From an uncultured Tessaracoccus sp. (lineage in GTDB: Bacteria > Actinomycetota > Actinomycetes > Propionibacteriales > Propionibacteriaceae), in NCBI RefSeq assembly GCF_943914565.1, contig NZ_CALUCN010000003.1, positions 97,054-161,053 on the forward strand: a stretch of DNA of 64,000 nucleotides. Direction: 5' to 3'. Positions 1-15,907 of the stretch are shown piece after piece. Below the pieces are notes generated by a model, which had not been told where the DNA came from, ran no database searches, and was given only the letters and a program-made list of their open reading frames with translations. Within the stretch, counting starts at the first letter, position 1. Each line of letters starts with the position of its first letter. The position numbers were made by a program, and so were the translations under genes.

Positions 1-1
1 C

Positions 2-1096
2 GTGCGGCAGGGCGCCGTCGTCGCGTGGATCTCGCCCGACTCCCTCGCAGCCCCGACGGGGGCCCGGGTCGTCGGGACGCACACCGACTCCCCGGCGTTC
101 AAGGTGAAGCCGGGCGAGCTGCTGCAGAGCGCCGGCTGGACGCAGATCGGCGTCGAGATCTACGGCGGCCCGCTGCTCAACTCGTGGCTTGACCGCGACC
201 TGGGCGTCGCTGGCCGCCTCGTCACGCGCGACGGCGCGGTGCACCTCGTGCGCACCGGCGCGATCGCGCGCATCCCGCAGCTCGCGATCCACCTCGACCG
301 CGGAGCCAACGACCAACTGCACCTCGACAAGCAGCTCCATCTGCAGCCCATCCTCACCACGGCGCCGAAGGGCGGGCTCATGGACCACCTCGCGGAGCTC
401 GCCGGGGTGCGCCGCGACGACATCGCCTTCCACGACCTGCACACGTTCGACACCCAGGCCCCGCAGGTGATCGGCCTCAACGACGAGTTCCTCGCCTCCG
501 GCCGCCTCGACAACCTCGCCTGCACGCACGCGGCGCTCGTCGCGATGGAACGGGCCGAGCCCGCGGAGCACCTCCAGCTCTTCGCCGCGTTCGACCACGA
601 GGAGGTCGGCTCCGGCACCACGACGGGCGCCGCCGGGCCGCTGCTCGAGGATGTCCTGGCCCGCATCACCGCCCGCCACGGGCTCGACGTGGACGCCACC
701 CGCGCGTTCATCGCGCGCTCGTCGTGCGTCTCGGCCGACACCGGCCACCTTGTCCACCCGAACTACCCCAACCACCACGACCCTGTCGTGCGCCCGCAGG
801 TCAACCAGGGCCCGCTGCTGAAGCTCAACGCGCAGCAGCGCTACGCCTCCGACGCCGTCGGCACCACCATCTGGCTCGACGCGTGCCAGCGGGCCGGGGT
901 GCCCACGCAGCCGTTCGTCAGCAACAACGCGATGCCCTGCGGCACGACGATCGGCCCGCTCACCGCGACGAGGCTCGGCATGACCACGGTCGACGTCGGT
1001 GTGGGCCTGTTGTCCATGCACTCCGCCCGCGAGATGTGTGGCGTCGACGACCCGGGCCACCTCGCCGCGGCCTGCCAGGCGTACTGGGCGGGCTGA
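2..1096 (+). CDS. M18 family aminopeptidase (aspartyl aminopeptidase-like), 5' partial
   Basis: Long ORF running off the window start. Motifs typical of M18 aminopeptidases (VVGTHTDSPAFKVKP, EEVGSGTTTG, CGTTIGP). Convergent with the downstream ABC ATPase. Confidence 0.85.
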   Translation: MRQGAVVAWISPDSLAAPTGARVVGTHTDSPAFKVKPGELLQSAGWTQIGVEIYGGPLLNSWLDRDLGVAGRLVTRDGAVHLVRTGAIARIPQLAIHLDRGANDQLHLDKQLHLQPILTTAPKGGLMDHLAELAGVRRDDIAFHDLHTFDTQAPQVIGLNDEFLASGRLDNLACTHAALVAMERAEPAEHLQLFAAFDHEEVGSGTTTGAAGPLLEDVLARITARHGLDVDATRAFIARSSCVSADTGHLVHPNYPNHHDPVVRPQVNQGPLLKLNAQQRYASDAVGTTIWLDACQRAGVPTQPFVSNNAMPCGTTIGPLTATRLGMTTVDVGVGLLSMHSAREMCGVDDPGHLAAACQAYWAG

Positions 1097-1100
1097 GCCC

Positions 1101-1949
1101 TCAGCTCGCGCGCTGCTGGGACGCCGGGAACGCGCCGGCGTTGGCGCCCGCGGTGACGAGGGCGCGGGCCTTGTTCGCGCCGCCGGAGCGCGGCACGTAG
1201 AAGTATGCGATCGGGCAGCCGGCGCACTCGCCGATCTCCATCTCGACGTCGAACACCTCGTGGAGGAGATCCTCGCGCACGATCTCCCTCGGCGTGCCGA
1301 CGGCGACGACACGGCCGTGCTTCATCGCGACGATCTGGTCGGCCCAGCAGGAGGCGTAGTTGATGTCGTGCACGACGATGACGACGGTCTTGCCGAGCTC
1401 GTCGGCAGCGCGGCGAAGCGTCATGAGCATGCCCTGCGAGTGGGCGACGTCGAGGTTGTTCAGCGGTTCGTCGAGGAGGACGTAGCGGGTGTCCTGCGCG
1501 AGCACCATCGCGACGAAGGCGCGCTGGCGCTGCCCGCCCGACATCTCGTCGAGGAACCGGTCGCGCAGCTCCGTGAGGTCCATCCACTCGATCGCCTGGT
1601 CGACGATGCGCCGGTCCTCGGCGGTCATCCTGCCTTGTGAGTGAGGGAACCGGCCGAAGCTGACGAGGTCCAGCACCGTGAGCCGGGCGGGCATCTCGTT
1701 GGACTGCCGGAGGATCGCCAGCGTCTTGGCGAGTTCGCGGGAGTCGCTGCGGTCCACGTCGAGACCACCGACCGTGATGCGCCCGGCATCCTTCTCCAGC
1801 AACCGCGCGATCATCGACAGCAGCGTCGACTTGCCCGCACCGTTGGCGCCCACGATGGCGGTCACGCCGCCGTCGGGGAGCTCGAGCGAGACCCCGTCGA
1901 CGACGAGGGACTTGCCGTAGGACTTGCTGACGTCGCTGACCTTGATCAC
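1101..1949 (-). CDS. iron-siderophore ABC transporter ATP-binding protein (FecE/FhuC-like)
   Basis: Walker A GANGAGKST, signature LSGGQRQR, Walker B LLDEP. GTG start overlaps the upstream permease stop (GTGA). The 686 aa six-frame ORF is an artefact; only the C-terminal 282 aa are genic. Confidence 0.9.
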   Translation of the reverse strand: MIKVSDVSKSYGKSLVVDGVSLELPDGGVTAIVGANGAGKSTLLSMIARLLEKDAGRITVGGLDVDRSDSRELAKTLAILRQSNEMPARLTVLDLVSFGRFPHSQGRMTAEDRRIVDQAIEWMDLTELRDRFLDEMSGGQRQRAFVAMVLAQDTRYVLLDEPLNNLDVAHSQGMLMTLRRAADELGKTVVIVVHDINYASCWADQIVAMKHGRVVAVGTPREIVREDLLHEVFDVEMEIGECAGCPIAYFYVPRSGGANKARALVTAGANAGAFPASQQRAS

Positions 1950-2926
1950 TTGCCACTCCTCACCACGAGCCAGATGAACACGATGCCGCCCACGAATTCG
2001 ACGACGACGCTGAGCACGGTGGCCATGCCGAAGCCGTGCTCCAGGACGGTCTGCCCGCCCACGAGCAGCAGTGCGCCGAGCGCACCGGCCATGGGCAGCA
2101 GGATCCGGTGCTTGGCGGTGCCGCCGACGAGGTTCGCGATCGCGGCGACGATCAGCCCCAGGAACGTGATGGGTCCGACGAGCGCCGTCGAGACCGCCAC
2201 GAGCAGCACCGATGCAAGCATGACGCGTCGGACGACGCGTCGGTAGGGGACCCCGAGCGAGACCGCGGGGTCGTGGCCGAGCAGCACCACGTCGAGCGTG
2301 GCGGCCTGCCGCACGAGCCACACCGAGACCAGCGCGACGACGCCCGCAGAGACCCACAGCAACGTCGGGTCCACGAGTGTGAACGACGCGAAGAGCTGCT
2401 GCTGCAGCACGAGGTACGACGTGGGGTCGAGCACGCGCTGCAGCAGGGTCGAGGCCGAGCGCAGCACCGCGCCCAGGACGAGACCGGCGAGCACCAGGAC
2501 GTGCACCGAGCGGCGCTCGCGGCCGAAGAGCAACGTGACGAGGCCGAGCGTCGCGACGAGGATCAACGCGGTGGTGAGCGCGAACATCGGCACCGCGCCG
2601 ATCGTCGTGGTGAACGTGACGCCGAGCACCACCACGAGCATCGTCTGCAGGAAGACGTAGAGGGCGTCGAGCCCCATGATCGACGGCGTGAGCAGGCGGT
2701 TGTGCGTCACGGTCTGGAACGCGACGGTGGCGATACCGGTGGCCCAGCCGACGAGCACCATGCTCGCGAGTTTCGGCAGCCGGAGCTCCATCACGAATGC
2801 GAGGTTGCTGCGCACGCCGAGGGTCAGGAACCCCACCGACGCGAGCGCGACCAGCGCGGCGACGAGCGCGACGCGGGTGCCGGGCCCGAGGCGGCGGGTG
2901 GGGGAGGGTGCGACGGTGGTGGTCAT
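1946..2926 (-). CDS. FecCD-family iron-siderophore ABC permease
   Basis: Multi-TM hydrophobic protein with FecCD/BtuC-like composition. ATGA overlap with the upstream permease and GTGA overlap with the ATPase. Confidence 0.85.
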   Translation of the reverse strand: MTTTVAPSPTRRLGPGTRVALVAALVALASVGFLTLGVRSNLAFVMELRLPKLASMVLVGWATGIATVAFQTVTHNRLLTPSIMGLDALYVFLQTMLVVVLGVTFTTTIGAVPMFALTTALILVATLGLVTLLFGRERRSVHVLVLAGLVLGAVLRSASTLLQRVLDPTSYLVLQQQLFASFTLVDPTLLWVSAGVVALVSVWLVRQAATLDVVLLGHDPAVSLGVPYRRVVRRVMLASVLLVAVSTALVGPITFLGLIVAAIANLVGGTAKHRILLPMAGALGALLLVGGQTVLEHGFGMATVLSVVVEFVGGIVFIWLVVRSGK

Positions 2927-3927
2927 GCCCTGCCCATCCTTCCGCCGAGGAGCAGCACCAGGAACACGATGCCGCCCAGGATGCCGGAGATCGTGCCGAC
3001 GGGGATCTCGTAGGGGTGGTTGATGGTGCGGGCGAGGAGGTCGCACACGAGCACGAAGCCGGCGCCCAGCAGCGCGCACCAGCCGATGTTGCGACGCAGG
3101 TTGTCGCCCAGCCACATGCTGACGAGGTTCGGCACCACGAGGCCGATGAACGGGATGGCACCCACGACGACGAGCGTGATCGCGCTGGCGGTCGCGACGA
3201 GTGAGAGTCCGAGGTTCACCGTCGAGCGGTAGCTGAGGCCGAGCCCCGTCGCCATGTCCTCGCCCAGGGACGCGACCGTGAACCGGTCGGCGAACAACCA
3301 CACGAGCGCGCCGACGCCGGCGAGCAGCCAGAGGAGTTCGTAGCGGCCGCGGAGGACACCGGCGAAGTCGCCCGCCATCCACGTGCCGAGCGCCTGGAGA
3401 AGATCGTGGCGGTAGGCGACGAAGGTCGTGCCCGCGGCGATGACCCCGCCCAGCATGATGCCCACCAGCGGCACGGCCACGACCGGCGCAGCCGGCGGCA
3501 GTGCACGGACGAGAGCCGTGAACGCCCACGTGCCCAGCAACGCCGTCGCCATCGCGACGAGCATCTTCACCACGACGGGGGCGCCGGGGGCGAGCAGGGT
3601 GACCGCGAGGATCCCGACGGTGGCGGACTCCGGCGTGCCGACGGTGCCGGGCTCGACGTAACGGTTGCGCACGAGCAGCTGCATGAGCAGGCCGCTCAGC
3701 GCGAGCGCGGCGCCGGCGAGCAGGACCGCGACCGTGCGTGGGATGCGGGCGGCGAACAGCACGAGCCGCTGCTCGGCGTCGAGCCCTCGGAAGAGGTCGG
3801 TGATGCCGAACTCCTGCACGCCGATGAACAGGCTCACCGCAGCCAGGAGCAGGAGCGCGACGAGACCGCCGACCCAGCCGATGCGCTGGGCGGCGGTCCG
3901 CGTCGGGTGCTGCAGCGTGGTGGTCAT
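2923..3927 (-). CDS. FecCD-family iron-siderophore ABC permease
   Basis: Second paralogous permease (starts MTTTLQHP). 4-bp overlaps with flanking genes. Confidence 0.85.
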   Translation of the reverse strand: MTTTLQHPTRTAAQRIGWVGGLVALLLLAAVSLFIGVQEFGITDLFRGLDAEQRLVLFAARIPRTVAVLLAGAALALSGLLMQLLVRNRYVEPGTVGTPESATVGILAVTLLAPGAPVVVKMLVAMATALLGTWAFTALVRALPPAAPVVAVPLVGIMLGGVIAAGTTFVAYRHDLLQALGTWMAGDFAGVLRGRYELLWLLAGVGALVWLFADRFTVASLGEDMATGLGLSYRSTVNLGLSLVATASAITLVVVGAIPFIGLVVPNLVSMWLGDNLRRNIGWCALLGAGFVLVCDLLARTINHPYEIPVGTISGILGGIVFLVLLLGGRMGRA

Positions 3928-4883
3928 GCGGCCTTGAGCAGCTCCTCGAGCATGGCCTTGGCGTTGTCGACGCCGTGGAGCATGAGGTACCAGCGGCCGC
4001 CGTCGAGGTAGACGACCTTCTCGTCCTTCCATGCGGTGGTCGAGTGCACGAGCTCGTTGTCGAGCACCTGCTGCGCGGCCTGACCACCCTCGGCGCCGAT
4101 CGCCGCGTCGCGGTCCATCACGTAGAGGATGTCGGGGTTGGCCTTCTGGATCGCCTCGAACGAGATGGCGTCGCCGTGGGCCTGCTCGCCGTCGGCCTGC
4201 TGCTTGATCGCCGGGGTGAGGCCGAGGCCGTCGTAGGCGAGGTCGAACCGGCCGCCGGGGTGGACGGCGCTGAGCTTGCCGCCGGAGCTCATCAGCATGA
4301 GCACCGCCTTCTCCGCGGGGATCTTGCCCTTGGCGTCGGCGATCGTGGACTTGAGGTCCTTGAGCTTCGTGTCCATCTCGGACTCCTTGCCGACGGCCTT
4401 GGCGACGATCTTCGCCGAGTACGCGACGCCCTCGTAGTAGTCGTCCTTGGTGTCGTAGGTGACGTCGACGGTGGGGAACTTCCCCATGAGCTCCTTGGCG
4501 AGCTTGGAGGTGCGGAAGCCGGCGATGACGAGGTCCGGGTCGAGCTCGGCGATGGCTTCGAGGTCGGGCTCCTTCAGGGTGCCGACGTCGGCGTACTTGT
4601 CGTCGCTGAACTGCTCGAGGGCCTTCGGCAGCGGGGTGCCCTTGGGGAGGCCGACCACCTTGTCCTGCAGACCCAGGGTCTGGAGGTTGTCGAGGCTGCC
4701 GAGGTCGAGCACGACGATGCGCTCGGCCGGGCCGTCGAGCTCGGTGGTGCCGGCGGTGTGGGTGATCGAGATCTTCTCGTCACCGGAGGCGGGTTCGGAG
4801 CCGCCCGTCGCGGAGGAGCCGCAGGCCGTCGTGAGGGCAATGAGACCGGCAGCGAGGGTGGCTGCCAGGCGCTGTAGCTTCAT
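3924..4883 (-). CDS. siderophore/iron(III) ABC substrate-binding lipoprotein
   Basis: Signal peptide plus lipobox (LTTAC). Periplasmic binding protein cluster-8 like sequence. First gene of the operon. Confidence 0.85.
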   Translation of the reverse strand: MKLQRLAATLAAGLIALTTACGSSATGGSEPASGDEKISITHTAGTTELDGPAERIVVLDLGSLDNLQTLGLQDKVVGLPKGTPLPKALEQFSDDKYADVGTLKEPDLEAIAELDPDLVIAGFRTSKLAKELMGKFPTVDVTYDTKDDYYEGVAYSAKIVAKAVGKESEMDTKLKDLKSTIADAKGKIPAEKAVLMLMSSGGKLSAVHPGGRFDLAYDGLGLTPAIKQQADGEQAHGDAISFEAIQKANPDILYVMDRDAAIGAEGGQAAQQVLDNELVHSTTAWKDEKVVYLDGGRWYLMLHGVDNAKAMLEELLKAA

Positions 4884-4924
4884 CGGAACTCTTTCGTGTT
4901 CGTTGGTGTTCGGTTCGTCGCGAC

Positions 4925-4943
4925 TTAGGTGAGCCTAACCTAG
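4925..4943. promoter_or_regulatory. IdeR/DtxR iron box (TTAGGTGAGCCTAACCTAG)
   Basis: 16/19 match to the consensus TTAGGTTAGGCTAACCTAA. Lies about 40 bp upstream of the binding-protein gene start in the divergent promoter region shared with a GNAT gene. Confidence 0.6.
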
Positions 4944-4998
4944 GTCGGTGGACCGATCAACCATCCTCCGGTATTTGAGAAAGGGATATGTATCGAAA

Positions 4999-5535
4999 AT
5001 GGGTGACGTCGTGATCCGATCCGCTCGCGTCGACGAATCCGACGCCGTGGCCGCGCTCGCAGCGGCGACGTTTCCCGACGCCTGCCCCGCTTCGATGCCC
5101 GAGGTGGCCATCCGGGCGTACATCGACGCGCACCTCTCGCCAGCACGCATCGCGGAGCACCTGATGGGCGACCAAGCGGAGGTGATCGTCGGGGAGCGGG
5201 CGGGGGAGCTCGTGGGGTACGTGCTGCTGTTCCGCGGCGACGCGGGCCGGCCGCCGACGGGTTCCGGGGTCACGGTCTCCCCGACGGCGTTGCTGTCCAA
5301 GTGCTACGTCCGGGCCGGGGTGCGCGGGGGTGGGGTTGCGGCCCAGCTGCTCGACGCCGCGCTCGAGTGGGGTCGCACGGAGGGCCTCGGCGGGCTGTGG
5401 CTGAACGTCAACCACGCCAACCACCGTGCGCAGCGCTTCTACGCCAAGCATGGATGGGAGCGGGTGGGCGAGCTGGACTTCCTCGTCGGCGACGTCGTCA
5501 ACCACGACCCGGTGTACCAGTACCCGCTCGACTGA
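4999..5535 (+). CDS. GNAT family N-acetyltransferase
   Basis: Acetyl-CoA binding motif region (RGGGVAAQLLDAALEW, YAKHGW). Start ambiguous (ATG 4999 or upstream 4948). Confidence 0.7.
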   Translation: MGDVVIRSARVDESDAVAALAAATFPDACPASMPEVAIRAYIDAHLSPARIAEHLMGDQAEVIVGERAGELVGYVLLFRGDAGRPPTGSGVTVSPTALLSKCYVRAGVRGGGVAAQLLDAALEWGRTEGLGGLWLNVNHANHRAQRFYAKHGWERVGELDFLVGDVVNHDPVYQYPLD

Positions 5536-5685
5536 CGCTTGTCGGGCGGCGGATCGGGGTGGTGGCACCCTGTGCTGCGCTGTCCCGGCACAGGTTGCAG
5601 GTGGTCCGGGGCCCGCGACGCCGGGCCCCCGTCGGCGCTGTCGGGGATTCGGCCCCTACTCAGGCGGGGACTAGACTGGGCCAGC

Positions 5686-6759
5686 GTGGCACTCACGATT
5701 GGAATCGTCGGCCTTCCCAACGCCGGCAAGTCGACCCTGTTCAACGCGCTGACGCGCAACGACGTGCTCGCCGCGAACTATCCCTTCGCGACGATCGAGC
5801 CCAACGTGGGCGTGGTCGGGGTGCCGGACCCGCGGCTGGCGCGGCTGGCCGAGATCTTCGAGTCGGAGAAGATCATCCCTGCGACGGTGAGCTTCGTCGA
5901 CATCGCGGGCATCGTGAAGGGGGCGAGCCAGGGCGAGGGCATGGGCAACGCGTTCCTCGCCAACATCCGCGAGGCCGACGCGATCTGCCAGGTCACGCGC
6001 GTCTTCGAGGACGACGACATCCTCCACGTCAACGGTGAGGTGAACCCCGCCAACGACATCGACACCATCAACACCGAGCTCATCCTCGCCGACCTGCAGA
6101 CCGTCGACAAGGCGCTGCCGCGGGTGGAGAAGGAGGCGAAGATCAAGAAGGAGACCCGCCCGAAGTTCGAGGCCTTCGCCGCAGCGAAGGAGGCGCTCGA
6201 GGCGGGCGTGCCGGTGCGCAACGCCGACGTGGACCACGAGCTCCTGCGTGAGCTGCACCTGCTCACCGCGAAGCCCTACATCTACGTCTTCAACTGCTCG
6301 CAGGAGGAACTCGCCGACGAAGCCCTCAAGGCTCGCATGCGCGACGTCGTGGCTCCGGCGGAGGCGATCTTCCTCGACGCGAAGTTCGAGGCCGAGCTCG
6401 TCGAGATGGAGGAGGGCGAGGCGCGCGAGTTCCTGGCCGAGGCGGGGATCGACGAGCCGGGCCTGGACGTGCTGGCGCGCGTCGGCTACGAGACGCTGGG
6501 TCTGCAGAGCTTCCTCACCGCAGGCCCGAAGGAGGCCCGCGGCTGGACGATCAAGCGCGGCTGGACCGCCCCCGAGGCCGCAGGCGTGATCCACACCGAC
6601 TTCCAGAAGGGCTTCATCAAGGCCGAGGTGATGACCTTCGACGACCTCGACGAGCTCGGCTCCGAGGCCGCCGTCCAGGCAGCCGGCAAGCTCCGCCTCG
6701 AGGGCAAGGACTACGTCATGGCCGACGGCGACGTCGTGGAGTTCAGGTTTTCAAACTGA
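5686..6759 (+). CDS. ychF: redox-regulated ATPase YchF (Obg-like GTPase family)
   Basis: G1 [20 protein letters not shown]4 NxxD region and C-terminal TGS domain ([11 protein letters not shown]). GTG start in frame. The longer six-frame ORF upstream is GC-rich run-on. Confidence 0.9.
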
Positions 6760-6912
6760 TTCTTGGGGGTTGAAGGGGAGAACTGGAGTCGAGCAGGTGC
6801 AGCTCCATGAAGCTGCGCTGCGGTACTCTGGAGTGGAGCATCTGTTCTGCTCATCGCTCATCGCGGTGGCAGTACCTGGACTGAGGCCTTGGGTATCTGA
6901 GGAGGGGCTGAG

Positions 6913-7263
6913 ATGAGCTCTACCAAGTTCGTCATTCGCATGATCACGGTTGACTGTGAGGACCCAGCGCGGCTTGCGGCGTTCTGGTCTCAAGCCACGG
7001 GGTGCCCTGTAGCTGCTGACTACGGTGACTTCGTCATGGTTGGTTCTGTTCCGGCGCTCGGGTTCCAGCGTGTCCCGGAAACAAGGTCTGGAAAAAACCG
7101 CATTCACTTCGACGGTGGTGGAGAAGACCGTGAAGTCTTGGTTCGTCGGCTCCGTGACCTTGGGGCGACCGAACACGAGACTCGCAGCGTTCCCGGGCTG
7201 ACGTGGACTGTCATGACCGATCCAGAAGGCAACTACTTCTGTGTTGGTAACCCCGAGGGATGA
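6913..7263 (+). CDS. VOC (glyoxalase/bleomycin-resistance fold) family protein
   Basis: 116 aa with the typical VOC pattern. Good SD (GAGGAGG) before the ATG. Lies in a region of clearly lower GC than the surroundings. Confidence 0.75.
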   Translation: MSSTKFVIRMITVDCEDPARLAAFWSQATGCPVAADYGDFVMVGSVPALGFQRVPETRSGKNRIHFDGGGEDREVLVRRLRDLGATEHETRSVPGLTWTVMTDPEGNYFCVGNPEG

Positions 7264-7429
7264 GTACTGTGGGGATGCTCAGCCTGTAATCAGGCAGCGT
7301 GAGCTGTCCATGCAGCCTCACAAGCGGCGATCTTCGCACGTGATAGCTCTATCCATCAAAACTCAGTGGAGTTCCAGTTTACCGTATAGCGATGTTGACT
7401 CAATGCGTCATGTTTGGTCCGTTGGAGGG

Positions 7430-7765
7430 GTGATCAGATCCTTCGGCGACCGTGACACGGAGCTTGTGTAGTTGCGTGAACGGGCTCGGCGGATCGATCC
7501 GAGAATCCATGAGACGGCGAACCGGAAGCTGCATCAGTTGGACGCTGCCGTGTCGCTCAACTCGCTTCGGGTCCCTCCACGCCGGATCGACGAGATTGTG
7601 CATGGCAAGCGGGCGATCACGGCCGACACGGCACTGCATCTGGGGCGCTACTTCGGTGTGGAGCCGCAATTCTGGCTCAACCTGCAGTCGCGCTACGAGC
7701 TCGAGCCGGCGGCGGATCGAGTGGCCGATCAGATCGCTGCCATCGCGCCGCTGCAGACGGCATGA
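7430..7765 (+). pseudogene. higBA: higB-higA remnant: HigB toxin N-terminus fused in frame to HigA antitoxin C-terminus, with an amber codon at 7469-7471
   Basis: VIRSFGDRDTELV-stop-...ARRIDPRIHETANRKLHQLDAAVSLNSLRVPP matches the HigB (PF05015) N-terminal half. It continues directly into PRRIDEIVHGKRAITADTALHLGRYFGVEPQFWLNLQ, the HigA-family HTH C-terminus. The HigB catalytic C-half and the HigA N-half are absent. Confidence 0.55.
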
Positions 7766-7786
7766 TGGTGCCGAAACTTGGGGCTG

Positions 7787-8111
7787 CGCCACTCTGGGGT
7801 CGCGTCGCCGTGGTCACGGGTGTGAGCCGGCGGCAGGGGCATTGGATAGGCGAGTGCGGTGCGGTTGGCGGCGGCTGGCGCTGACCTCTTCATCACTCAT
7901 CATCGTGCTCATGACGAATCTCAGCCGCGCGGTCTTGATGACGTCGGGGGCAGGGACTCGGGCCTCTGTCTGGAGACGTTGCCTACGGGGCGTCCAATGT
8001 GGGGATGTCGGGAATCACACTGACCTTGGCCGACCAGCTCTCCGACGATGGCATCACGCTCAACACCGTGAATCCGCGCCCGGTCGATACTGGCTACATG
8101 ACGCCTTCGTG
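7787..8111 (+). pseudogene. short-chain dehydrogenase/reductase (SDR) remnant, frameshifted with a large internal deletion
   Basis: Three frames carry SDR pieces: GRVAVVTGVSRRQGIG (Rossmann N-terminus), VRLAAAGADLFITHH, and AYGASNVGMSGITLTLADQLSDDGITLNTVNPRPVDTGYM (YxxxK region to C-terminal PG motif). Only about 320 bp remain of an expected ~750 bp. Confidence 0.5.
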
Positions 8112-8221
8112 ATGTATCCAAGTGCCTGAAGGTGGTCGAGTTCAGGTTCAGTCGTTGGTTCCTGCTCTCCAACCGGCATGTGATCGTCGGGCGATGTCCC
8201 GCCCGGGGATCACATGCCACT

Positions 8222-8640
8222 TCAGTCGAGGGCGCGCAGGGGTTCGAACACTCGCGGATGGCGGTGGTCGAAGCCGGCAATGGGCTGCTGGCGGTCCAGT
8301 CCGGCGATCGTGGACATCTCGTCCTTGGCGAGTTCGAAGTCGAAGAGGTCGATGATGGCGGCGAGGCGATCCGGGTGCGTCGACTTGGCAACTGCTGCTA
8401 CCCCGCGCTGCACGTGCCAGTGCAGGATGACCTGCTGCATCGGTCTGCGTGACCAGGTCGAGGTAGTCGGTGTCGAGTGCGCAGGGAGTCCTCGAAGGCC
8501 TGCGGCACGGCCCGCTGCCGACCCAGCACGGTCAACGGCGCGTGAGCGTGGGTCACGGGAACGGGCCTCCTTCCAGCAAACGGATGCTTCTTGACGCCAC
8601 CGACCCTGCCGGCGAGGAACCCGTTCCCCTACCCCAACAC
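8222..8640 (-). pseudogene. aldo/keto reductase remnant (frameshifts and internal deletion)
   Basis: AFEDSLRTLDTDYLDLV (AKR LGTDYIDLY motif) in one frame. QQVILHWHVQRGVAAVAKSTHPDRLAAIIDLFDFELAKDEMSTIAGLD (AKR C-terminal ALAW...NLAALDLELS region) in another. About 420 bp instead of ~1 kb. Confidence 0.5.
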
Positions 8641-8669
8641 AGTGACTACAACGTCACAGGGAAGTACAT

Positions 8670-9008
8670 CTAGAGGTCCAGCAGTAGGCCAAGCACCTCG
8701 CGAATCTCAGCGAGCAGGGCTGGTCCCACTGCACCCCGGGTGGCGATGAGTCGTTCGACGGAGATTGATCGCACGTGTTGGCACTGGGCGGCTGATGGCG
8801 CCTTGAGCTGGTTCTCCTTGTCTGGCTCAACGTACACTTCCGCGCCGCTGGACCGAATGGTCCGGGTCAGCGGGACAACCTGCACCACGTTCGGCTTGCC
8901 TCGCAGTACGCCAGTGGCGGTTACGACCACGGCTGGTCGCCGGAGGCCCGCCTCGCTCCCGATCGGGGTGCCAAGATCGACCTCGACGATGTCACCCGAG
9001 GTCAGCAT
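8670..9008 (-). CDS. mazF: type II toxin MazF/PemK family endoribonuclease
   Basis: GDIVEVDLGTPIGSEAGLRRPAVVV and downstream conserved blocks typical of MazF/PemK. Start at internal Met, overlapping the antitoxin 3' end. Confidence 0.8.
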   Translation of the reverse strand: MLTSGDIVEVDLGTPIGSEAGLRRPAVVVTATGVLRGKPNVVQVVPLTRTIRSSGAEVYVEPDKENQLKAPSAAQCQHVRSISVERLIATRGAVGPALLAEIREVLGLLLDL

Positions 9009-9189
9009 CGAGCCAAGTCTCTTCCTCATCGGTGAGCTTGGCGCTCAACTCCTGCCCCATCGACAGCTGCCTCAACGCACGCAGGGCCCGATCGACCGTC
9101 TGGTCGATGGTCTCGTGGCGTTGCTGGGCCAACCTCGTGATGCGGCTGTGTGTCTGGCGGCTGACCCGGATGGTGGTGGTGTCGCGCAT
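8992..9189 (-). CDS. mazE: MazE-like antitoxin (small DNA-binding protein)
   Basis: 65 aa ORF immediately upstream of and overlapping mazF by 17 bp. Basic N-terminus (RVSRQTHSRITRLAQQ) and acidic C-terminus, as expected for an antitoxin. Confidence 0.6.
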   Translation of the reverse strand: MRDTTTIRVSRQTHSRITRLAQQRHETIDQTVDRALRALRQLSMGQELSAKLTDEEETWLDADLG

Positions 9190-9206
9190 GAGTCCAGCCT
9201 ACCGCG

Positions 9207-9226
9207 TGTAGACAACATGGTCTACA
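9207..9226. promoter_or_regulatory. candidate mazEF operator: inverted repeat TGTAGAC-N6-GTCTACA
   Basis: Perfect 7-bp inverted repeat centred about 25 bp upstream of the mazE start. Confidence 0.4.
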
Positions 9227-9476
9227 TGGGAGGTGGTGCGACGAACAGCTTGGCGGGTTCGGCTCCGGACGTTCTGCTTCGCCCGCCGGGTGGTTCAAGG
9301 CGGCCGCGCGCAGATGGTTCTTCACGTGGGGGTGCGGTGGAGTTCCGCTTCACCGTGTGCGTACGTGGGTCTGGGGGCACGCACGCCTCGGCGTAGGTCT
9401 GGTCGTGGCGTGCGCGTGGCGCGCGGCCCAGCCGTCCTGGGAGCGGGCTGCATGCTGTGGCCAAGGGCTCCGCCGC

Positions 9477-9755
9477 TCAGGCGACGCGGGAGCCGTAACG
9501 CTGGCGGGCTGCTTCACCGGAGGTGCCGACGAAGGTGCCGATGTTCGCCCAGGACATCCCCGAAGCGCGTGCGCTCCTGACCGCTTCGAGCAGATGTCGT
9601 TCAGCGGCTGATTGTTCGGCCACGGCGTCGCGGAGTCGACGGATGGCCGAAGGGTCGAGTTCGTGCTCAGCGTCGGGTTCGTAGTTCTCGAACCGTGCGG
9701 CGAGCTCGTCGGCATGAGCCAGGATCTGCTCGACTGTGCGCGGCATGGTCATCAC
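9477..9755 (-). CDS. small HTH-containing protein, putative antitoxin of the upstream toxin-like gene
   Basis: 92 aa. Acidic N-half, C-terminal HTH-like segment (SGMSWANIGTFVGTSGEAARQRY). 4-bp overlap with the upstream gene. Last gene of a three-gene overlapping operon. Confidence 0.5.
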   Translation of the reverse strand: MMTMPRTVEQILAHADELAARFENYEPDAEHELDPSAIRRLRDAVAEQSAAERHLLEAVRSARASGMSWANIGTFVGTSGEAARQRYGSRVA

Positions 9756-10102
9756 CTCAGAAACCTCTCACGGGCTCGCGTCGCATGGACGATGACGAAG
9801 GCGGTGGAGCCCTGGACGTAGCCGACCTCAAGGAAGAGGGCGGCCTGATTGGGGCCGACGATCATCGTGAACCCGTCCCCAAGATCCCAAGCGCGCAGGG
9901 GGTTCCTGTAGGCGTGAAGGATCTCGTCTTCCGTCAGCCCGGGCCCCAGTGCTGACTGGGCGATGATCGGCTCGTCCACGATTCCAAGGTACCTTGTCGT
10001 TGTGTCGGGCTCAACGGCGAGGGTGGTGCGTCGTCCGGGAGTCTCGGATGCGGGGTGCTTGGCCAGAGATGCCGACGCGTCCGCGATAACGACGTCGCTC
10101 AC
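9752..10102 (-). CDS. DUF497/BrnT-like (RelE-fold) putative toxin
   Basis: C-terminal 70 aa (AYRNPLRAW...FTMIVGPNQAALFLEVGYVQGSTAFVIVHATRARERF) resembles the BrnT family pattern (F-DP ... VV-T-R-...IRIISARKA..E), recalled from memory. GTG start overlapping the upstream stop (GTGA). The six-frame ORF is longer but its upstream part is GC run-on. Confidence 0.5.
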   Translation of the reverse strand: MSDVVIADASASLAKHPASETPGRRTTLAVEPDTTTRYLGIVDEPIIAQSALGPGLTEDEILHAYRNPLRAWDLGDGFTMIVGPNQAALFLEVGYVQGSTAFVIVHATRARERFLR

Positions 10103-10593
10103 CCGATCATGTAGGCGAGGCCCAGCCCACGCGTCGCTATGTCCCGTGCGAACGTGCGCGCCTGGCCGAAGTATTCGAGGAAGTAGTCGCGGTCGTCTTC
10201 GTCCAACGTCGCGCAGAAGGCGTCGAGCTCCTCGGGCGTGACGCTGTCCAGGTCGTCCGCGATGGCTGCGACGGTGGCCACGTCGAGCACGGCGAGGTGC
10301 GGGTCCCAGGCCCGGTCGGTCAGCACCAGCGTGACCTGCCCCTGGAACAGCTGATACGCAGGGCGCGCCTCGCCCCCGTCGGGCCAGCTGAAGCGTTGCA
10401 GGATGGACCAACACTTGTCGAGGTAGAGCATCTCCGGCTTCGGGCGGTCGGTGAAGGCCCAGTGGTGCTCGTCGATGGGCTCGAGGCCCCACGCATCGGC
10501 GAGCGGGTCATCGGACATGACGCACCACGGGTCGCGCCGAGCGGCCTCCACCATGGCGGGTTCGACTGGATAGGCGTAGTAACGGATTCCCAT
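10099..10593 (-). CDS. DUF1877 (YfbM-like) family protein
   Basis: Starts MGIRYYAYP (YfbM-like MGM-GYF start). LDKCWSILQRF and the C-terminal DYFLEYFGQ...G pattern resemble the YfbM family, recalled from memory. First gene of the three-gene operon. Confidence 0.55.
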   Translation of the reverse strand: MGIRYYAYPVEPAMVEAARRDPWCVMSDDPLADAWGLEPIDEHHWAFTDRPKPEMLYLDKCWSILQRFSWPDGGEARPAYQLFQGQVTLVLTDRAWDPHLAVLDVATVAAIADDLDSVTPEELDAFCATLDEDDRDYFLEYFGQARTFARDIATRGLGLAYMIG

Positions 10594-10736
10594 GTCTGCA
10601 AGATGGCAGTGGCGAAGGCCTGCTGCCCGCGCAGCGGCGAATCTGTGGAGAACTCCACGGCCGAGCACCCCGCAGGCCTCGCGCGCTGCTCTGGCGTGAC
10701 GAGCCCCGGGATTCGGGAACTGGGCCGCGGTTCTGC

Positions 10737-11276
10737 CTACTCGCCGACCTGGCCGTCGATGGCCTCTCGGAGGAGGTCCGCATGGCCGTTGTGCCGTGCG
10801 TACTCCTCGATCATGTGGGTGAGCACCCACCGAAGGCTGGGTGCGTGCCCGTCCGGCCAACGGCGACGCGTTGGTTGCGCCAACCCGTCACGGGCGCGGG
10901 CCGCTTCGGCATTGGAGCGGGCACGCGCGACGGCGTGCCGCCACAGGTCGTGGAGTGTTTCCGGGGTGTCGTCGGCAGCGGACTCCCATGCCCAGTCCGG
11001 CGTCGTGGCCCAATCGACTGAGGCCCAGGGTTCGCGGAGGGGCCGGTCGTACAGCCAGTGGTCGAACCAGTGGTCCTCGACGTGGGCGAGGTGCTTCATC
11101 AAGCCGCCGAGCGTCATGGTGCTGGGCGACAGCGGCTGCGCCAGCTGCTCCGCAGTGAGGCCGTCGCACTTCCAGGCGAACGTTGCTCGCAGGAAGTCGA
11201 GGAAGCCGGTCAGGGTGTCCCATTCATCGCCGTCGAGAGGAGGCTCTGGTCGGCCGTGTTGATCGATGTCTGGCAT
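10737..11276 (-). CDS. DinB_2/DUF664 family protein (mycothiol maleylpyruvate isomerase-like N-terminal fold)
   Basis: Four-helix-bundle signature with the C-terminal MIEEYARHNGHADLLRE motif typical of DUF664/DinB_2. Confidence 0.8.
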   Translation of the reverse strand: MPDIDQHGRPEPPLDGDEWDTLTGFLDFLRATFAWKCDGLTAEQLAQPLSPSTMTLGGLMKHLAHVEDHWFDHWLYDRPLREPWASVDWATTPDWAWESAADDTPETLHDLWRHAVARARSNAEAARARDGLAQPTRRRWPDGHAPSLRWVLTHMIEEYARHNGHADLLREAIDGQVGE

Positions 11277-11458
11277 GTTCGGATCCTACGACGAGGTGCT
11301 GGGAAGCGTCTTGGGCAGTCAGCGCACACGGCGGGCCAGGGGTCGCTCTCGCCTTCGTGCATCGCCCTGCCCCGAGGTTCGCCAGCACGCGGAGCCTCAC
11401 AGCGGACGCACAGCCAGGGCACAGGAGCCAGCGATGATGGCGGCCTGTACTGGTTGCC

Positions 11459-13552
11459 ATGACCGCTACGACTGTCGCCGATCCGGCTCCACCGATCCCA
11501 CCCACCACGTCCACGAGCTCGCCCACCGTCGCTGCCGTCCCCGGCCGCGCGCGATGGGCGACTCCCGCCGTCCTCGTGCTCATGCTCGCGGCCGGCGTCG
11601 TCTACGCCATGGGCATCAAGCTCGGGCTGATCCACAACTACTACGGACCCGCCGTCTACTCCATGTCCCAGAGCTGGAAGGCCTTCTTCTGGGGAGCCTT
11701 CGACGGCAGTTCCATCACGCTCGACAAGATCCCGGGCGCCTTCTGGATCCAAGCGCTGTCGGCGCGGATCTTCGGCTGGTCCACCTGGTCGGTGCTCATG
11801 CCCCAGGTCCTCCAAGCCGTCGCCGCGATCGGGGTCCTCTACGCCACCGTCCGCCGTTGGGCGGGCGACGTCGCCGGCTTCCTCGCCGCTGCGGCACTCG
11901 CGGTGACCCCCGTCCTCGCCGCACTGGCACACTCCCAGATCGTCGACACCCAGCTCCTCCTGCTCACCGTTTGCGCCGCTTGGGCCTGGACGCACGCCGT
12001 GCAGAAGGGGTCGGGGTGGTGGCTCGCCCTTGCCGGGGTGTTCGTCGGCATGGGCTTCAACGCCAAGATGGCGCAGGCATGGGGCATCCTGCCCGCCCTC
12101 GCGATCACATACCTCCTCTTCGCGCCGACGACGCAGGTGAAGCGCTGGCTCCACACCCTCGTCGCGGGGGTGGTCACCCTTGCCAGCTCGCTGTGGTGGG
12201 TCCTCATCGCGTCCTTGGTGCCGGCGAGCTCGCGCCCTTGGATCGACGGGGCCGCTGACAACTCGGTGTGGACCATGGTGTTCGAGTACAACCTCCTCGG
12301 CCGCTACGAGTCGGGCCAGGGTGGGCCGGGCGGTGCGTCGGGATGGACGTACCTGCTCTCGTCCGACGTCGCGACGCAGTTCGGCTGGCTCCTCCCGGCC
12401 GCTGTGGTCGGGTTCGCGATCGTGCTCTGGGACCGTCGTCGCGTGCCCAGGACCGACCTCGTCCGCGCCGCCACCGTCATGTGGGGTGTGTGGCTGGCGA
12501 CCTTCGTCGTCGCGTTCTCGACCGGCCGCGTCGCACACTCGTTCTACACCGTGGCGCTGGCCCCGGCCATCGTCGCCCTCGCCGCGACGGGGGCTGCGGT
12601 CGCGTGGCAGGCCGCGCGGCGTGGTCAGCGCTGGCCGGCGTTGGCGATGATCGTGCCCACCGTCGCGTGGACGGCGTACCTCACCTTGCAGTTCCCGACC
12701 TTCCAGACGTGGACCCTGCCCGTCGTGATCGCGCTCGCCGTGGTCGGCGCGGTCCTGCTCTTCGTGCGCAAGTCGCCGCTGGCGTTGCGGACGGGAGCCG
12801 CGGCCCTCGTGATCTCGGCGCTCCTCACCCCGGCGGTCTGGGCCGCGTCCACCGTGCAGTCCGGGTACTCGGGCGCGTCGATCGGCCCCGCCGCGGGTCC
12901 GGTCCAGACCATGGGCGGCGGCCCGGGTGGTCAAGGTGGCCCCGGCGGTCAGGGTGGACCTGATGGACAGGGCGCCCCCGGGGATGGCGACGGCCAGGGC
13001 GGCTCTCAGGGTCAGCAGGACGGGACACCGTCCCAGCAGGGCGGCCCCCAGGGCCAGCAGGACGGTACGCCTCCGTCCGACGGTGGCCAGCCCCCGGAAG
13101 GAGTGACTCCGCCGAGCGGTGGGCAGGCTCCGCAGGCCGGTCAGGGCCAGGCCGGCTCGCAGCCGGATGGTCAGCCCCAGGGCGGCCCAGGCATGGATGG
13201 TGGCTCGACGTCGCAGGCGAGCTCCGCGCTGGCGTACATCACCGAGCACGACCCCGGCACCGTGTACGACGTCGTCGTGTTCGGGTACGGCACCGCCGGC
13301 AGCTACATCCAGGCCGGAGGCCGGGTGATCAGCGTCGGAGGGTTCACCGGACAGATGGCCAACCTCACCCTGAGCGAACTCCAGGCCATGGTGGCCGCGC
13401 ACGAGGTCACCTACGTGGTCGTTGACGGTGGTGGCCAGGGTGGCGGCCCTGGCGGGGGCAGCGGTTCCAACTCCACCAGTGAGATCACCGAGTGGGTGAC
13501 CGCCAACGCCACGGAGGTCGACGGCTACAACGGGCTCTACCACTTCGAATAG
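11459..13552 (+). CDS. glycosyltransferase family 39 (ArnT/PMT-like) membrane protein with Gly/Pro/Gln-rich low-complexity region and C-terminal extra domain
   Basis: N-terminal multi-TM region with a GT39-like periplasmic loop (KIPGAFWIQALSARIFG). Residues about 480-590 are GGPGGQGG/QGQQDGTP repeats (nt about 12900-13230). Confidence 0.8.
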   Translation: MTATTVADPAPPIPPTTSTSSPTVAAVPGRARWATPAVLVLMLAAGVVYAMGIKLGLIHNYYGPAVYSMSQSWKAFFWGAFDGSSITLDKIPGAFWIQALSARIFGWSTWSVLMPQVLQAVAAIGVLYATVRRWAGDVAGFLAAAALAVTPVLAALAHSQIVDTQLLLLTVCAAWAWTHAVQKGSGWWLALAGVFVGMGFNAKMAQAWGILPALAITYLLFAPTTQVKRWLHTLVAGVVTLASSLWWVLIASLVPASSRPWIDGAADNSVWTMVFEYNLLGRYESGQGGPGGASGWTYLLSSDVATQFGWLLPAAVVGFAIVLWDRRRVPRTDLVRAATVMWGVWLATFVVAFSTGRVAHSFYTVALAPAIVALAATGAAVAWQAARRGQRWPALAMIVPTVAWTAYLTLQFPTFQTWTLPVVIALAVVGAVLLFVRKSPLALRTGAAALVISALLTPAVWAASTVQSGYSGASIGPAAGPVQTMGGGPGGQGGPGGQGGPDGQGAPGDGDGQGGSQGQQDGTPSQQGGPQGQQDGTPPSDGGQPPEGVTPPSGGQAPQAGQGQAGSQPDGQPQGGPGMDGGSTSQASSALAYITEHDPGTVYDVVVFGYGTAGSYIQAGGRVISVGGFTGQMANLTLSELQAMVAAHEVTYVVVDGGGQGGGPGGGSGSNSTSEITEWVTANATEVDGYNGLYHFE

Positions 13553-13558
13553 GTGCCG

Positions 13559-13611
13559 CACTGACCTGTGGGGCCCGACGCTCACCGAGCGTCGGGCCCC
13601 ACAGGTCAGTG
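13559..13611. terminator. bidirectional intrinsic terminator hairpin (perfect 24-bp stem, 5-nt loop)
   Basis: CACTGACCTGTGGGGCCCGACGCTC-ACCGA-GCGTCGGGCCCCACAGGTCAGTG, placed between the convergent GT39 gene (ends 13552) and the minus-strand gene ending at 13634. Confidence 0.6.
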
Positions 13612-13633
13612 CGCGCGTGGAGGCGGTGGGCGG

Positions 13634-14614
13634 TCAGACCCCCAGCCCGCCGTCAGCCGGAATCTCGGCGTCGGGGGTGCCCTCGGGGCGGGCCCAGCCG
13701 TCCTCGACCCGCTCGCGGGCGATCGCCTCGAGCCGGTCGAGGGCGTCGAAGGTCTCCACCCGTGACTTCTCCACGGTGACCGCACCGCCGACCGCACCCT
13801 CGATGATCGCGAGTCGCCGCGCCCGCAGCCGCGCCTCGAGGAAACGCCCGTCCTTCTCCAGGTACATGCGGCCCCACTCGGCCATGTTCTCGTCGAACAA
13901 CTCGTGGAACCAGCTGTTGTCCTCCTTCGACTCCTCGCCGAACTCCTCGTCGTCGAACTCGTTCTCGTCGGGGTCGGGGCTGACCGGGTCGATGTGGGGG
14001 TGCCATGTCATGGGGACGACGAGCACGCCCTCCGACGAGTCGTCCGGCCGGTGCGGGAGGTCGTGCTGGCGCAGGGCCTCGACCACGCGTCGCTCCAGCT
14101 CCTCGTCGTTGCCGCTCAGACTCCGGTACAGGATGATCACGTCGACGGGACCCAGGTGCAGGTCCTCGACCATCTGGAAGTGGGTGATGACCGCGCCGAG
14201 GTCGTCCTCGTCGTCGTCCATCTCGGCCCACTCGGTGAACTCCTCGACCACGATGCCCTGCGCACGCAACTCGTCGAAGGCCGCGCCCAGCCGGTCCACG
14301 TCGGTGGTCTCTCCGTCCCAGGCGCGGGTGCGGCGGGCGGTGTCGTTCCACACCGCCCGGACGAAGCGTTCGACGTAGGTCAAGCGCTCGTCGTCGTCCT
14401 CGATGGAGTCGAGCTGGTCGATCCATGTGTCGGGATCGGGATAGGTCTCGGGGTCCTCGAAGAGGGGATAGGCGATCTCCTCCGGTGGCTCGGAGCACGC
14501 GAGTACATCTGCGCGCACGGCCTCGACGAGGGTGGAAAGCTCGGGATCGGAAACAAGGTCAGCGGGATTCACGTTGGTCATGCGCCCAGTCTGTATGGCG
14601 CCCCGGGTCACCAT
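13634..14614 (-). CDS. hypothetical highly acidic protein
   Basis: 326 aa ORF (alternative start at Met-12, 14581). Very acidic with D/E runs. Co-oriented with the SMI1/KNR4 gene. No recognisable catalytic motif. Confidence 0.55.
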   Translation of the reverse strand: MVTRGAIQTGRMTNVNPADLVSDPELSTLVEAVRADVLACSEPPEEIAYPLFEDPETYPDPDTWIDQLDSIEDDDERLTYVERFVRAVWNDTARRTRAWDGETTDVDRLGAAFDELRAQGIVVEEFTEWAEMDDDEDDLGAVITHFQMVEDLHLGPVDVIILYRSLSGNDEELERRVVEALRQHDLPHRPDDSSEGVLVVPMTWHPHIDPVSPDPDENEFDDEEFGEESKEDNSWFHELFDENMAEWGRMYLEKDGRFLEARLRARRLAIIEGAVGGAVTVEKSRVETFDALDRLEAIARERVEDGWARPEGTPDAEIPADGGLGV

Positions 14615-14657
14615 CCACAGATCCCGGCACCCACGTTCGACAGATGACTGGCCGTGC

Positions 14658-15551: not shown

Positions 15552-15637
15552 GCGTGCAGCGTAGGCAGAGAGGTGGGTCACCCATGGGACGGTTCGAGTG
15601 ATCGGCCTGGCCACGGACGCCTCCTCGGACGCTGCGG

Positions 15638-15817: not shown

Positions 15818-15907
15818 GCATGCTCCTCGCGCAGCACGCGGCCCGACTCGTTGCGCTACTCGCGCTGGGACAGGGGTTCCGGTCGTGGCTCCGGCAGACT
15901 CATGCCT

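What the first reader, a model, noticed from the sequence alone, without database searches (positions are those of the whole stretch)
7430..7765. In-frame HigB::HigA chimera created by deletion at a shared VPP microhomology, plus an amber codon
The ORF reads HigB N-half (to LRVPP) and then, without frame change, continues as HigA C-half (PRRIDEIVHGKRAITADTALHLGRYFGVEPQFWLNLQ). The HigB catalytic half and the HigA HTH N-half are precisely excised. Both parent genes contain a VPP codon stretch at the junction, which suggests microhomology-mediated deletion. An amber stop (7469-7471) interrupts the HigB part after about 13 codons, with a TTG immediately after. The toxin was neutralised twice. What remains, if expressed, would be a tail of HigA.
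Basis: partly seen in the sequence, partly recalled or inferred. Interest (0 to 1): 0.55.

Follow-up and report, generated by a model that had tools for sequence, protein, structure and literature searches.

The report
Dead higBA toxin-antitoxin fusion remnant
This is the wreck of a HigB/HigA toxin-antitoxin gene pair: one 254-base deletion fused the front of the toxin gene to the back of the antitoxin gene, and a stop codon also hit the toxin part. This is ordinary gene decay, but it sits in a graveyard of mobile-element remnants stacked behind the ychF gene.

Summary
Window 7430-7765 reads in one frame as HigB residues 1-50 followed by HigA residues 39-99. A TAG lies at 7469-7471 where relatives have TGG (Trp).

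An intact relative, metagenome contig L002, is about 85-87% identical in DNA and carries separate higB (93 aa) and higA (99 aa). The window differs from it by one 254-bp deletion between GTCCCTCCG (higB Val48-Pro50) and GTCCCGCCG (higA Val36-Pro38).

The remnant is almost certainly a pseudogene:
- The HigA tail carries four substitutions never seen in 96 close full-length HigAs.
- The HTH is incomplete.
- No promoter-like site was found.
- The downstream SDR gene of the same block is broken by two further deletions (311 and 182 bp) and two 1-nt insertions.

RefSeq nevertheless names the last 71 codons a HigA antitoxin.

The context is the more interesting part. The block is one of several small cassettes bounded by direct copies of the last 24 nt of ychF. 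That site is an integration hot spot used by tyrosine and large serine recombinases across Actinomycetota, and other decayed higBA remnants lie in similar blocks elsewhere. The finding itself is ordinary and interest is low.

The parts
7366..7389 (+). Degenerate copy of the last 7 codons plus stop of ychF (GTGGAGTTCCAGTTTACCGTATAG, reads VEFQFTV*). It marks the left boundary of the higBA block.
   Evidence: In L002, L052, L073, L091 and L093 the same core directly precedes higB.
7390..7429 (+). Diverged higBA leader/promoter region (cgatgttgactcaatgcgtcatg...). Intact cassettes have cgttattgac...cgttat here.
   Evidence: The consensus scan found no sigma-70-like site.
7430..7579 (+). higB remnant, codons 1-50 (the N-terminal helices). 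The whole C-terminal part (residues 51-93, ending in the conserved DYH) is deleted.
7469..7471 (+). Amber codon TAG replacing Trp14 (TGG in L002; W in P0005 and the other HigB sequences).
7571..7579 (+). Deletion junction GTCCCTCCA (Val-Pro-Pro). The breakpoint lies somewhere inside this shared stretch.
   Evidence: The deletion is 254 bp relative to L002 (261 to 515).
7580..7765 (+). higA remnant, codons 39-99 plus stop (helix 3 of the HTH, helices 4-5 and the C-terminal helix). It carries four substitutions at otherwise invariant positions. RefSeq calls 7550-7765 a 71-aa HigA (WP_296136813.1).
7765..8105 (+). Remnant of the short-chain dehydrogenase gene that follows higA in intact cassettes. 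It has 1-nt insertions at 7835 and 7946, a 311-bp deletion at 7923/7924 and a 182-bp deletion at 8105/8106.
8106..8158 (+). Right end of the block: a conserved arm (ttcgtgatgtatccaagtgcctgaaggtg) plus a ychF-end core copy (GTCGAGTTCAGGTTCAGTCGTTGG).

Best explanation
The locus is a non-functional remnant (pseudogene) of a HigB/HigA (GraT/GraA-type) type II toxin-antitoxin operon.

A single 254-bp deletion between two short direct repeats removed three things: the sequence for the C-terminal 43 residues of HigB, the 8-bp spacer, and the first 35-38 codons of higA. The repeats are the Val-Pro-Pro codons of higB and of higA. The two genes lie in different frames, and the end points fall at equivalent codon positions, so the product is an in-frame fusion.

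The likely mechanism is replication slippage or another illegitimate, microhomology-guided recombination. This step is inferred.

A separate TGG-to-TAG mutation truncates the HigB part at codon 14. Either lesion alone inactivates the toxin. The deletion also destroys the antitoxin's helix-turn-helix, which is tolerable only because the toxin is dead.

Since then the remnant has drifted neutrally. The same erosion hit the neighbouring SDR gene. The whole block is a decaying leftover of a mobile element that once inserted at the 3' end of ychF and carried higBA as its addiction module. The addiction role is inferred.
For: - The alignment to the intact operon of a relative maps one clean 254-bp gap with GTCCC(T/G)CCG at both end points.
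- Both halves show the same divergence from L002 (84.8% and 86.8% nt), so they come from one ancestral operon.
- TAG corresponds to TGG.
- The HigA tail has N-to-D, R-to-H, L-to-P and Q/E-to-A changes at positions where 0 of 96 close full-length HigAs carry these residues.
- HigA profile positions 1-27 are absent. The HigB profile is matched only at positions 16-58 of 91.
- There is no promoter-like site, and the leader has diverged from that of intact cassettes.
- The same block carries two more deletions (311 and 182 bp), each at imperfect direct repeats, and two frameshifting insertions. In all, 747 nt, about half of the block, are lost.
- Other HigB::HigA deletion fusions with different junctions exist. 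P0005 on L091 is fused at ...CCG.CGATCCAC, and P0012 on L092 at LE(K/P)L. A frameshifted and stopped higBA lies downstream of ychF in Cutibacterium L025.
- An adjacent aldo/keto reductase fragment is also a remnant.
Against: - An uninterrupted 97-codon ORF (TTG 7472 to 7765) survives and AlphaFold predicts helices with mean pLDDT 80, so a small helical product cannot be excluded.
- Crude branch counts of non-synonymous and synonymous changes are too small to show relaxed selection formally.
- The microhomology is only 8 of 9 in the one intact relative available and is not the best in the operon, so the slippage mechanism is plausible rather than shown.
- All copies of the chimera are nearly identical (one strain or species), so there is no population-level test.
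Confidence: 0.9

Rival explanations
1. The surviving ORF (97 or 71 codons) is a functional mini-antitoxin or regulator. It would be a truncated HigA that still dimerises or binds a HigB encoded elsewhere in the genome, which is in effect how RefSeq annotates it.
For: The ORF is open. RefSeq names it a HigA family antitoxin. The predicted helices of the tail superpose on solved HigA/GraA structures over 61-66 columns at rmsd 3-4 A.
Against: HTH helices 1-2 are missing. There are four substitutions at invariant positions, including Asn in RRINEIV and a Pro inside the C-terminal helix. No promoter-like site was found. No higB exists in the 64-kb window. The surrounding genes are also wrecked.
Confidence: 0.06
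2. The chimera arose by recombination between two different higBA loci, with higB from one and higA from another, rather than by an intra-operon deletion.
For: Relatives carry two higBA pairs about 1.5 kb apart in the same array (L001, L002). The VPP codons would offer the same microhomology between paralogues.
Against: Both halves are closest to the same L002 pair (85% and 87% nt). The second pair is far more distant (HigB2 37%, HigA2 61% aa). The SDR gene that follows higA of pair 1 also follows the chimera.
Confidence: 0.03
3. The fusion or the stop codon is a sequencing or assembly artefact.
For: None specific. The relatives used are metagenome assemblies.
Against: The identical junction occurs in four further contigs from different samples and assemblers (SRR3183419, SRR3182384, ERZ26881177, ERZ1034712), three of which also span the amber codon and carry it. 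The protein is on record on 16 contigs.
Confidence: 0.01

Closest known systems
HigB/HigA type II toxin-antitoxin systems of the GraT/GraA type (PDB 6F8S; Pfam PF05015 plus TIGR02607/HTH_3)
   Same: The intact relative's HigB matches GraT at E 3e-27, and its HigA matches VapI/HigA/GraA structures at E 1e-15 to 8e-20. Gene order is toxin first. The conserved RVPPGNRLE and GVPPRRINEIV motifs are present.
   Different: Only HigB residues 1-50 and HigA residues 39-99 remain here, fused and interrupted by a stop. There is no toxin core and no complete HTH.
Decayed or orphan toxin-antitoxin loci (toxin lost first or together with the antitoxin)
   Same: The toxin is inactivated, by both a nonsense mutation and a deletion, without ever leaving an active toxin unguarded. 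Similar HigB::HigA deletion fusions occur in other metagenome contigs (P0005, P0012, P0006).
   Different: In P0005 the antitoxin stays complete, making a solo HigA. Here the deletion also removes half of the antitoxin's DNA-binding domain.
Integrative elements that target the 3' end of ychF in Actinomycetota, for example pipolins encoding large serine recombinases (PMC11551731)
   Same: The block is bounded by copies of the ychF 3' end. The same 24-nt core lies next to large serine recombinase and tyrosine integrase genes in viral or prophage contigs and directly behind ychF in several genomes.
   Different: No recombinase is present anywhere in the 64-kb window. The blocks are only 0.6-1.2 kb and are mostly gene fragments or toxin-antitoxin pairs.
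Tandem accretion of integrative elements with cis-mobilisable remnants, and toxin-antitoxin cassettes of chromosomal integrons (both recalled from my own knowledge, not tested)
   Same: These are arrays of small units separated by direct repeats of an attachment site. They are often toxin-antitoxin pairs, and their order differs between relatives.
   Different: No attC-like structure or integron integrase is present. The repeat is the end of a housekeeping gene. Mobility of the small blocks is not shown.

Membership tests
HigB-like RelE-superfamily toxin (PF05015) | Full-length domain match above the curated threshold | tested here: not met
   17.4 bits against a cut-off of 27. Only profile positions 16-58 of 91 are matched.
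HigB-like RelE-superfamily toxin (PF05015) | C-terminal part of the protein (residues 51-93), ending in the conserved DYH. That this part holds the beta-sheet and the catalytic residues is my own knowledge of RelE-type toxins. | tested here: not met
   Residues 51-93 of the intact relative are deleted.
HigB-like RelE-superfamily toxin (PF05015) | Uninterrupted reading frame | tested here: not met
   TAG at codon 14.
HigB-like RelE-superfamily toxin (PF05015) | Descent from a higB gene (homology of the N-terminal part) | tested here: met
   79% identity to the L002 HigB over 61 residues, E 6e-25. The DNA is collinear, including the leader.
HigA antitoxin (TIGR02607 / HTH_3) | Sequence match above the curated threshold | tested here: met
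   63.7 bits against a cut-off of 47.7, but only profile positions 28-79 of 81 are matched.
HigA antitoxin (TIGR02607 / HTH_3) | Complete five-helix HTH domain, with helices 1-2 present | tested here: not met
   HigA residues 1-35 are deleted. The model superposes on HigA only over the tail.
HigA antitoxin (TIGR02607 / HTH_3) | Conserved residues of the recognition helix and core maintained | tested here: not met
   N-to-D, R-to-H and L-to-P changes, each 0 of 96 in close homologues.
HigA antitoxin (TIGR02607 / HTH_3) | Neutralises a cognate HigB and represses its own promoter | not testable with these tools
   This needs expression and rescue assays.
Integrative element at the ychF attB | Flanked by direct repeats of the ychF 3' end | tested here: met
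   Cores at 7366 and 8135. The peptide motif VEF[RQK]F occurs only four times in the six-frame translation of the window, all on the + strand between 6736 and 9337.
Integrative element at the ychF attB | Encodes its own recombinase | tested here: not met
   No homologue of the six recombinases found next to the core elsewhere is present in the window, and I saw none among the ORFs listed for 1-17000.

The most novel reading that the evidence does not exclude
The chimera may be a dead unit of an integron-like array. Small, recombinase-less cassettes are each bounded by a copy of the last 24 nt of ychF plus a conserved upstream arm. They are often toxin-antitoxin pairs, and elsewhere they carry mercury or heavy-metal resistance genes. 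In this reading they are excised and re-inserted in trans by serine or tyrosine recombinases that target the ychF 3' end, so that Actinomycetota would have a cassette-shuffling platform behind a housekeeping gene. Supporting this, the same three blocks occur in the opposite order in the window (higBA, PemK, X) and in contig L001 (X, PemK, higBA). The higBA block also follows different neighbours in different genomes.
Probability: 0.25. Interest if true: 0.6.

Novelty: new member of a known kind. Interest (0 to 1): 0.2.

Why it matters
The chimera itself matters little. It is a clean, precisely mapped example of how a toxin-antitoxin pair can be lost in one safe step, with toxin core and antitoxin removed together. 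It is also a caution for annotation, because RefSeq lists the 71-codon tail as a HigA antitoxin.

The context may matter more. The 3' end of ychF is an integration hot spot in Actinomycetota, used by several recombinase families. Behind it lie arrays of short blocks bounded by ychF-end repeats. In other genomes these blocks hold toxin-antitoxin pairs and metal-resistance genes. If these blocks move as units, that would be a cassette system in a phylum where, to my knowledge, integrons are rarely if ever found.

Tried and rejected
- I looked for the orthologous site in sequenced species with YchF as the query. The intact operon had to come from metagenome contigs.
- Nucleotide-level searches for ychF 3'-end copies (blastn-short and sliding local alignment) gave nothing above background in this GC-rich DNA. 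The repeats became clear only at peptide level and in comparison with other loci.
- The promoter/terminator scan found no promoter.
- Parsimony counts of non-synonymous and synonymous changes on the window branch were too few to be informative.
- The structure prediction and fold search only recovered the HigA tail. They gave no sign that the HigB helix rebuilds an HTH domain.
- The plasmid search found no plasmid-borne copy of the cassette, only a Nocardia farcinica replicon with another array.
- Literature searches for insertions at the ychF end or for the core sequence found nothing, apart from one paper naming ychF as an integration site of LSR-encoding pipolins.

Full report
**1. The observation**

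Reading 7430-7768 in frame gives VIRSFGDRDTELV*LRERARRIDPRIHETANRKLHQLDAAVSLNSLRVPPRRIDEIVHGKRAITADTALHLGRYFGVEPQFWLNLQSRYELEPAADRVADQIAAIAPLQTA*. The amber codon is at 7469-7471 and a TTG follows it. The ORF lister gives 7472-7765 as a 97-codon ORF.

With the stop read as Trp, the C-terminal part matches the HigA equivalog TIGR02607 at E 1e-17. Only profile positions 28-79 of 81 are matched. The N-terminal part matches Pfam HigB-like toxin only weakly, at 17.4 bits and profile positions 16-58 of 91.

A search of the 5.8-billion-protein collection returned three kinds of hit:
- a 71-aa protein, 99% identical, named 'HigA family addiction module antitoxin [uncultured Tessaracoccus sp.]';
- many 99-aa HigAs at 80-92% identity over the tail;
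- several proteins that carry both HigB and HigA domains.

**2. Mapping the lesion against an intact relative**

The closest full-length HigA (P0009) lies on contig L002. That contig carries higB (93 aa, PF05015), higA (99 aa) and an SDR gene in a row.

The DNA alignment shows the window collinear with L002 from the leader onward, at 84.8% identity up to 7576. A 254-bp gap follows, and then identity is 86.8%.

The gap runs from GTC CCT CCG (higB Val48-Pro50) to GTC CCG CCG (higA Val36-Pro38). The window reads GTCCCTCCA at 7571-7579.

The two genes are in different frames in L002. The end points sit at equivalent codon positions, so the fusion is in frame. Lost are HigB residues 51-93, the 8-bp spacer and HigA residues 1-35.

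The lost HigB segment ends in the conserved DYH. The intact HigB matches GraT of PDB 6F8S at E 3e-27. That this segment holds the beta-sheet and catalytic residues is my own knowledge of RelE-type toxins, not something tested here. The lost HigA segment holds helices 1-2 of the HTH, judging from the alignments to solved HigA structures and my own knowledge of the XRE fold.

TAG at 7469 is TGG in L002. Trp is also found at this position in P0005, whose N-terminus (DRDTELVWLRE) is the closest to the window's.

The junction is found in four further contigs from other samples, and the amber codon in the three of them that span it. The 64-kb window holds no other higB or higA.

**3. Is anything left that works?**

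The evidence points to no.
- In the 61 retained HigA residues, four positions carry residues seen in 0 of 96 close full-length HigAs. These are Asn-to-Asp in RRINEIV, Arg-to-His in TALRLG, Leu-to-Pro in the C-terminal helix, and Gln/Glu-to-Ala.
- The leader has diverged from the cgttattgac...cgttat pattern of intact cassettes.
- No promoter-like site is found.
- AlphaFold gives four helices (mean pLDDT 80, pTM 0.50). Only the HigA-derived 61-66 residues superpose on solved HigA/GraA structures.
- Branch counts of substitutions are too small for a formal test.

RefSeq's protein WP_296136813.1 is, in my reading, a mis-annotated pseudogene fragment.

**4. Mechanism of formation**

The end points share GTCCC-CCG (8 of 9) in the one intact relative. 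That is a typical but modest microhomology. The operon contains one shared 9-mer and several 8-mers elsewhere, so the site was not uniquely predisposed.

Two further deletions in the same block also lie at imperfect direct repeats:
- 311 bp between GCCGTGGGGTGCAGATGACATCG and GCCGTGTGGTCTTGATGACGTCG;
- 182 bp between ATGACGCC and ATGATGCGG.

Other deletion fusions of HigB and HigA exist with other junctions. P0005 on L091 is fused at a shared Pro-Ile-His stretch, and P0012 on L092 at Leu-Glu.

I therefore infer short-repeat-guided illegitimate recombination, by replication slippage or a similar process. This is inferred, not shown. The order of the amber mutation and the deletion cannot be resolved. 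Either order is viable, because each lesion kills the toxin.

**5. Surroundings**

Relative to L002 the block 7366-8158 has lost 747 nt, about half its length, through the three deletions. It has also gained two 1-nt insertions in the SDR gene. Next to it lies a 72-codon C-terminal fragment of an aldo/keto reductase at 8222-8440 on the minus strand. Intact neighbours are a glyoxalase-like gene (6913-7263), a PemK/MazF pair (8670-9189, minus strand) and a pair of small genes (9477-10021, minus strand).

The peptide motif VEF[RQK]F, the C-terminus of YchF, occurs only four times in the six-frame translation of the whole window. All four are on the + strand, at 6736 (the ychF end itself), 7366, 8135 and 9337. 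These are the boundaries of the blocks.

The same pattern appears behind ychF in other Actinomycetota fetched with YchF. Between one and four extra copies of the host's own ychF end lie downstream, always on the + strand. The taxa are Enemella, Cutibacterium, Nocardioides, Marmoricola, Brevibacterium, Demequina and Corynebacterium jeikeium. In C. jeikeium all copies read VEFKFNV*, matching its own variant.

The pattern also appears on contigs L001, L002 and L091 and in Nocardia farcinica. The core is GTSGAGTTCMRSTTYAAYGTSTRR.

higBA blocks always start directly after a core with cgttattgac. In C. jeikeium, ORFs that look like a mercuric reductase with a MerR-type regulator, and a P-type ATPase with an ArsR-type regulator, lie between cores. 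These assignments are my reading of the ORF translations and were not tested against profiles.

Block order differs between genomes. In the window it is higBA-SDR, then PemK, then block X. In L001 it is X, then PemK, then higBA-SDR. In Brevibacterium L052 a higBA block ends with only the last ~95 bp of the SDR gene plus the same right-hand arm. This shows that internal deletion with retention of the ends is common.

**6. Who uses this site**

The core occurs in ten IMG/VR contigs, in three arrangements:
- Three contigs start at a genuine ychF end.
- Three carry a phage attP-like copy, followed about 80 bp later by a small tyrosine integrase.
- Four have a large serine recombinase gene abutting the left side of the core. 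One of these (L101) also has a 388-aa tyrosine integrase abutting the right side of the core.

Homologues of that 388-aa integrase sit directly behind ychF in a Micrococcales MAG, Modestobacter and Amycolatopsis. A 2024 paper names ychF as an integration site of pipolins encoding large serine recombinases in Actinomycetota (PMC11551731).

The window has no recombinase homologue. The most economical reading is tandem accretion of integrative elements at the ychF attB, followed by deletional decay. The reversed block order leaves room for movement of the small blocks in trans.

**7. Comparison with known systems, and verdict**

The parent system is an ordinary HigBA/GraTA-type module. The chimera fails the defining features of both families in three ways: it lacks the HigB C-terminal part, its HTH is incomplete, and invariant residues are lost. 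It is a pseudogene descended from them and not a member in the functional sense.

Loss of toxin-antitoxin pairs by deletion is well known, so interest in the finding itself is low. The array of ychF-end-bounded blocks is the part worth a follow-up, and I found it described only partly.

Noticed in passing
window 6736-6759, 7366-7389, 8135-8158, 9337-9360 (+ strand): The last 7 codons plus stop of ychF recur three times downstream as degenerate direct repeats. They delimit small blocks: a glyoxalase-like gene, then the higB::higA fusion plus SDR remnant, then the AKR fragment plus PemK pair. The peptide motif VEF[RQK]F occurs nowhere else in the six-frame translation of the 64-kb window.
   Followed up: yes
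L011, L025, L040, L041, L043, L052, L060, L073, L079, L088 (behind ychF); L001, L002, L091, L093: The same arrays of ychF-end copies, on the + strand only, occur behind ychF in many Actinomycetota. In C. jeikeium (L073), ORFs resembling a mercuric reductase with a MerR-type regulator, an epimerase, higBA, and a P-type ATPase with an ArsR-type regulator lie between cores (my reading of the translations). Nocardia farcinica has four cores, including a higBA block.
   Followed up: partly
L094-L103 (IMG/VR contigs); L064, L066, L074: The 24-nt core lies next to small tyrosine integrases (attP-like), a 388-aa tyrosine integrase and large serine recombinases. Homologues of the 388-aa integrase sit directly behind ychF in three genomes. 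One paper (PMC11551731) names ychF as an integration site of LSR-encoding pipolins in Actinomycetota.
   Followed up: partly
window 7366-10014 versus L001 1972-4743: The same three blocks (higBA-SDR, PemK pair, two small genes) are 85-89% identical but in opposite order, each in the same orientation. This suggests block-level reshuffling or independent acquisition.
   Followed up: partly
window 7765-8105: The short-chain dehydrogenase gene downstream of the chimera is a wreck. It has two 1-nt insertions and deletions of 311 and 182 bp, each at imperfect direct repeats.
   Followed up: yes
window 8222-8440 (- strand): A 72-codon ORF is only the C-terminal end (profile positions 240-289 of 291) of an aldo/keto reductase. 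It is another gene fragment in the array.
   Followed up: partly
window 7550-7765: RefSeq lists the last 71 codons as WP_296136813.1, 'HigA family addiction module antitoxin [uncultured Tessaracoccus sp.]'. This is probably an annotation of a pseudogene fragment. It also suggests the source organism.
   Followed up: partly
L091 344-700; L092 150-563; P0006; L025 16526-17083: These are further decayed higBA loci. P0005 fuses about 24 HigB N-terminal residues to HigA at a shared Pro-Ile-His stretch. P0012 is fused at Leu-Glu. P0006 has the HigB part broken off after LRV. Cutibacterium higB is frameshifted and its higA has an internal stop.
   Followed up: partly
L001 4778-5345; L002 1629-2196: Relatives carry a second, divergent higBA pair (52% and 73% aa identity) in the next block of the array. 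The window has no trace of it.
   Followed up: partly
window 6422-6430: A 9-bp in-frame indel inside ychF (CGCGCGAGT, present in the window and absent from contig L008) is the only difference over 4.1 kb between the two assemblies.
   Followed up: no
window 8175-8218: An inverted repeat of 19-nt arms (89% complementary, 6-nt loop) lies just after the core at 8135-8158. Its function is unknown.
   Followed up: no
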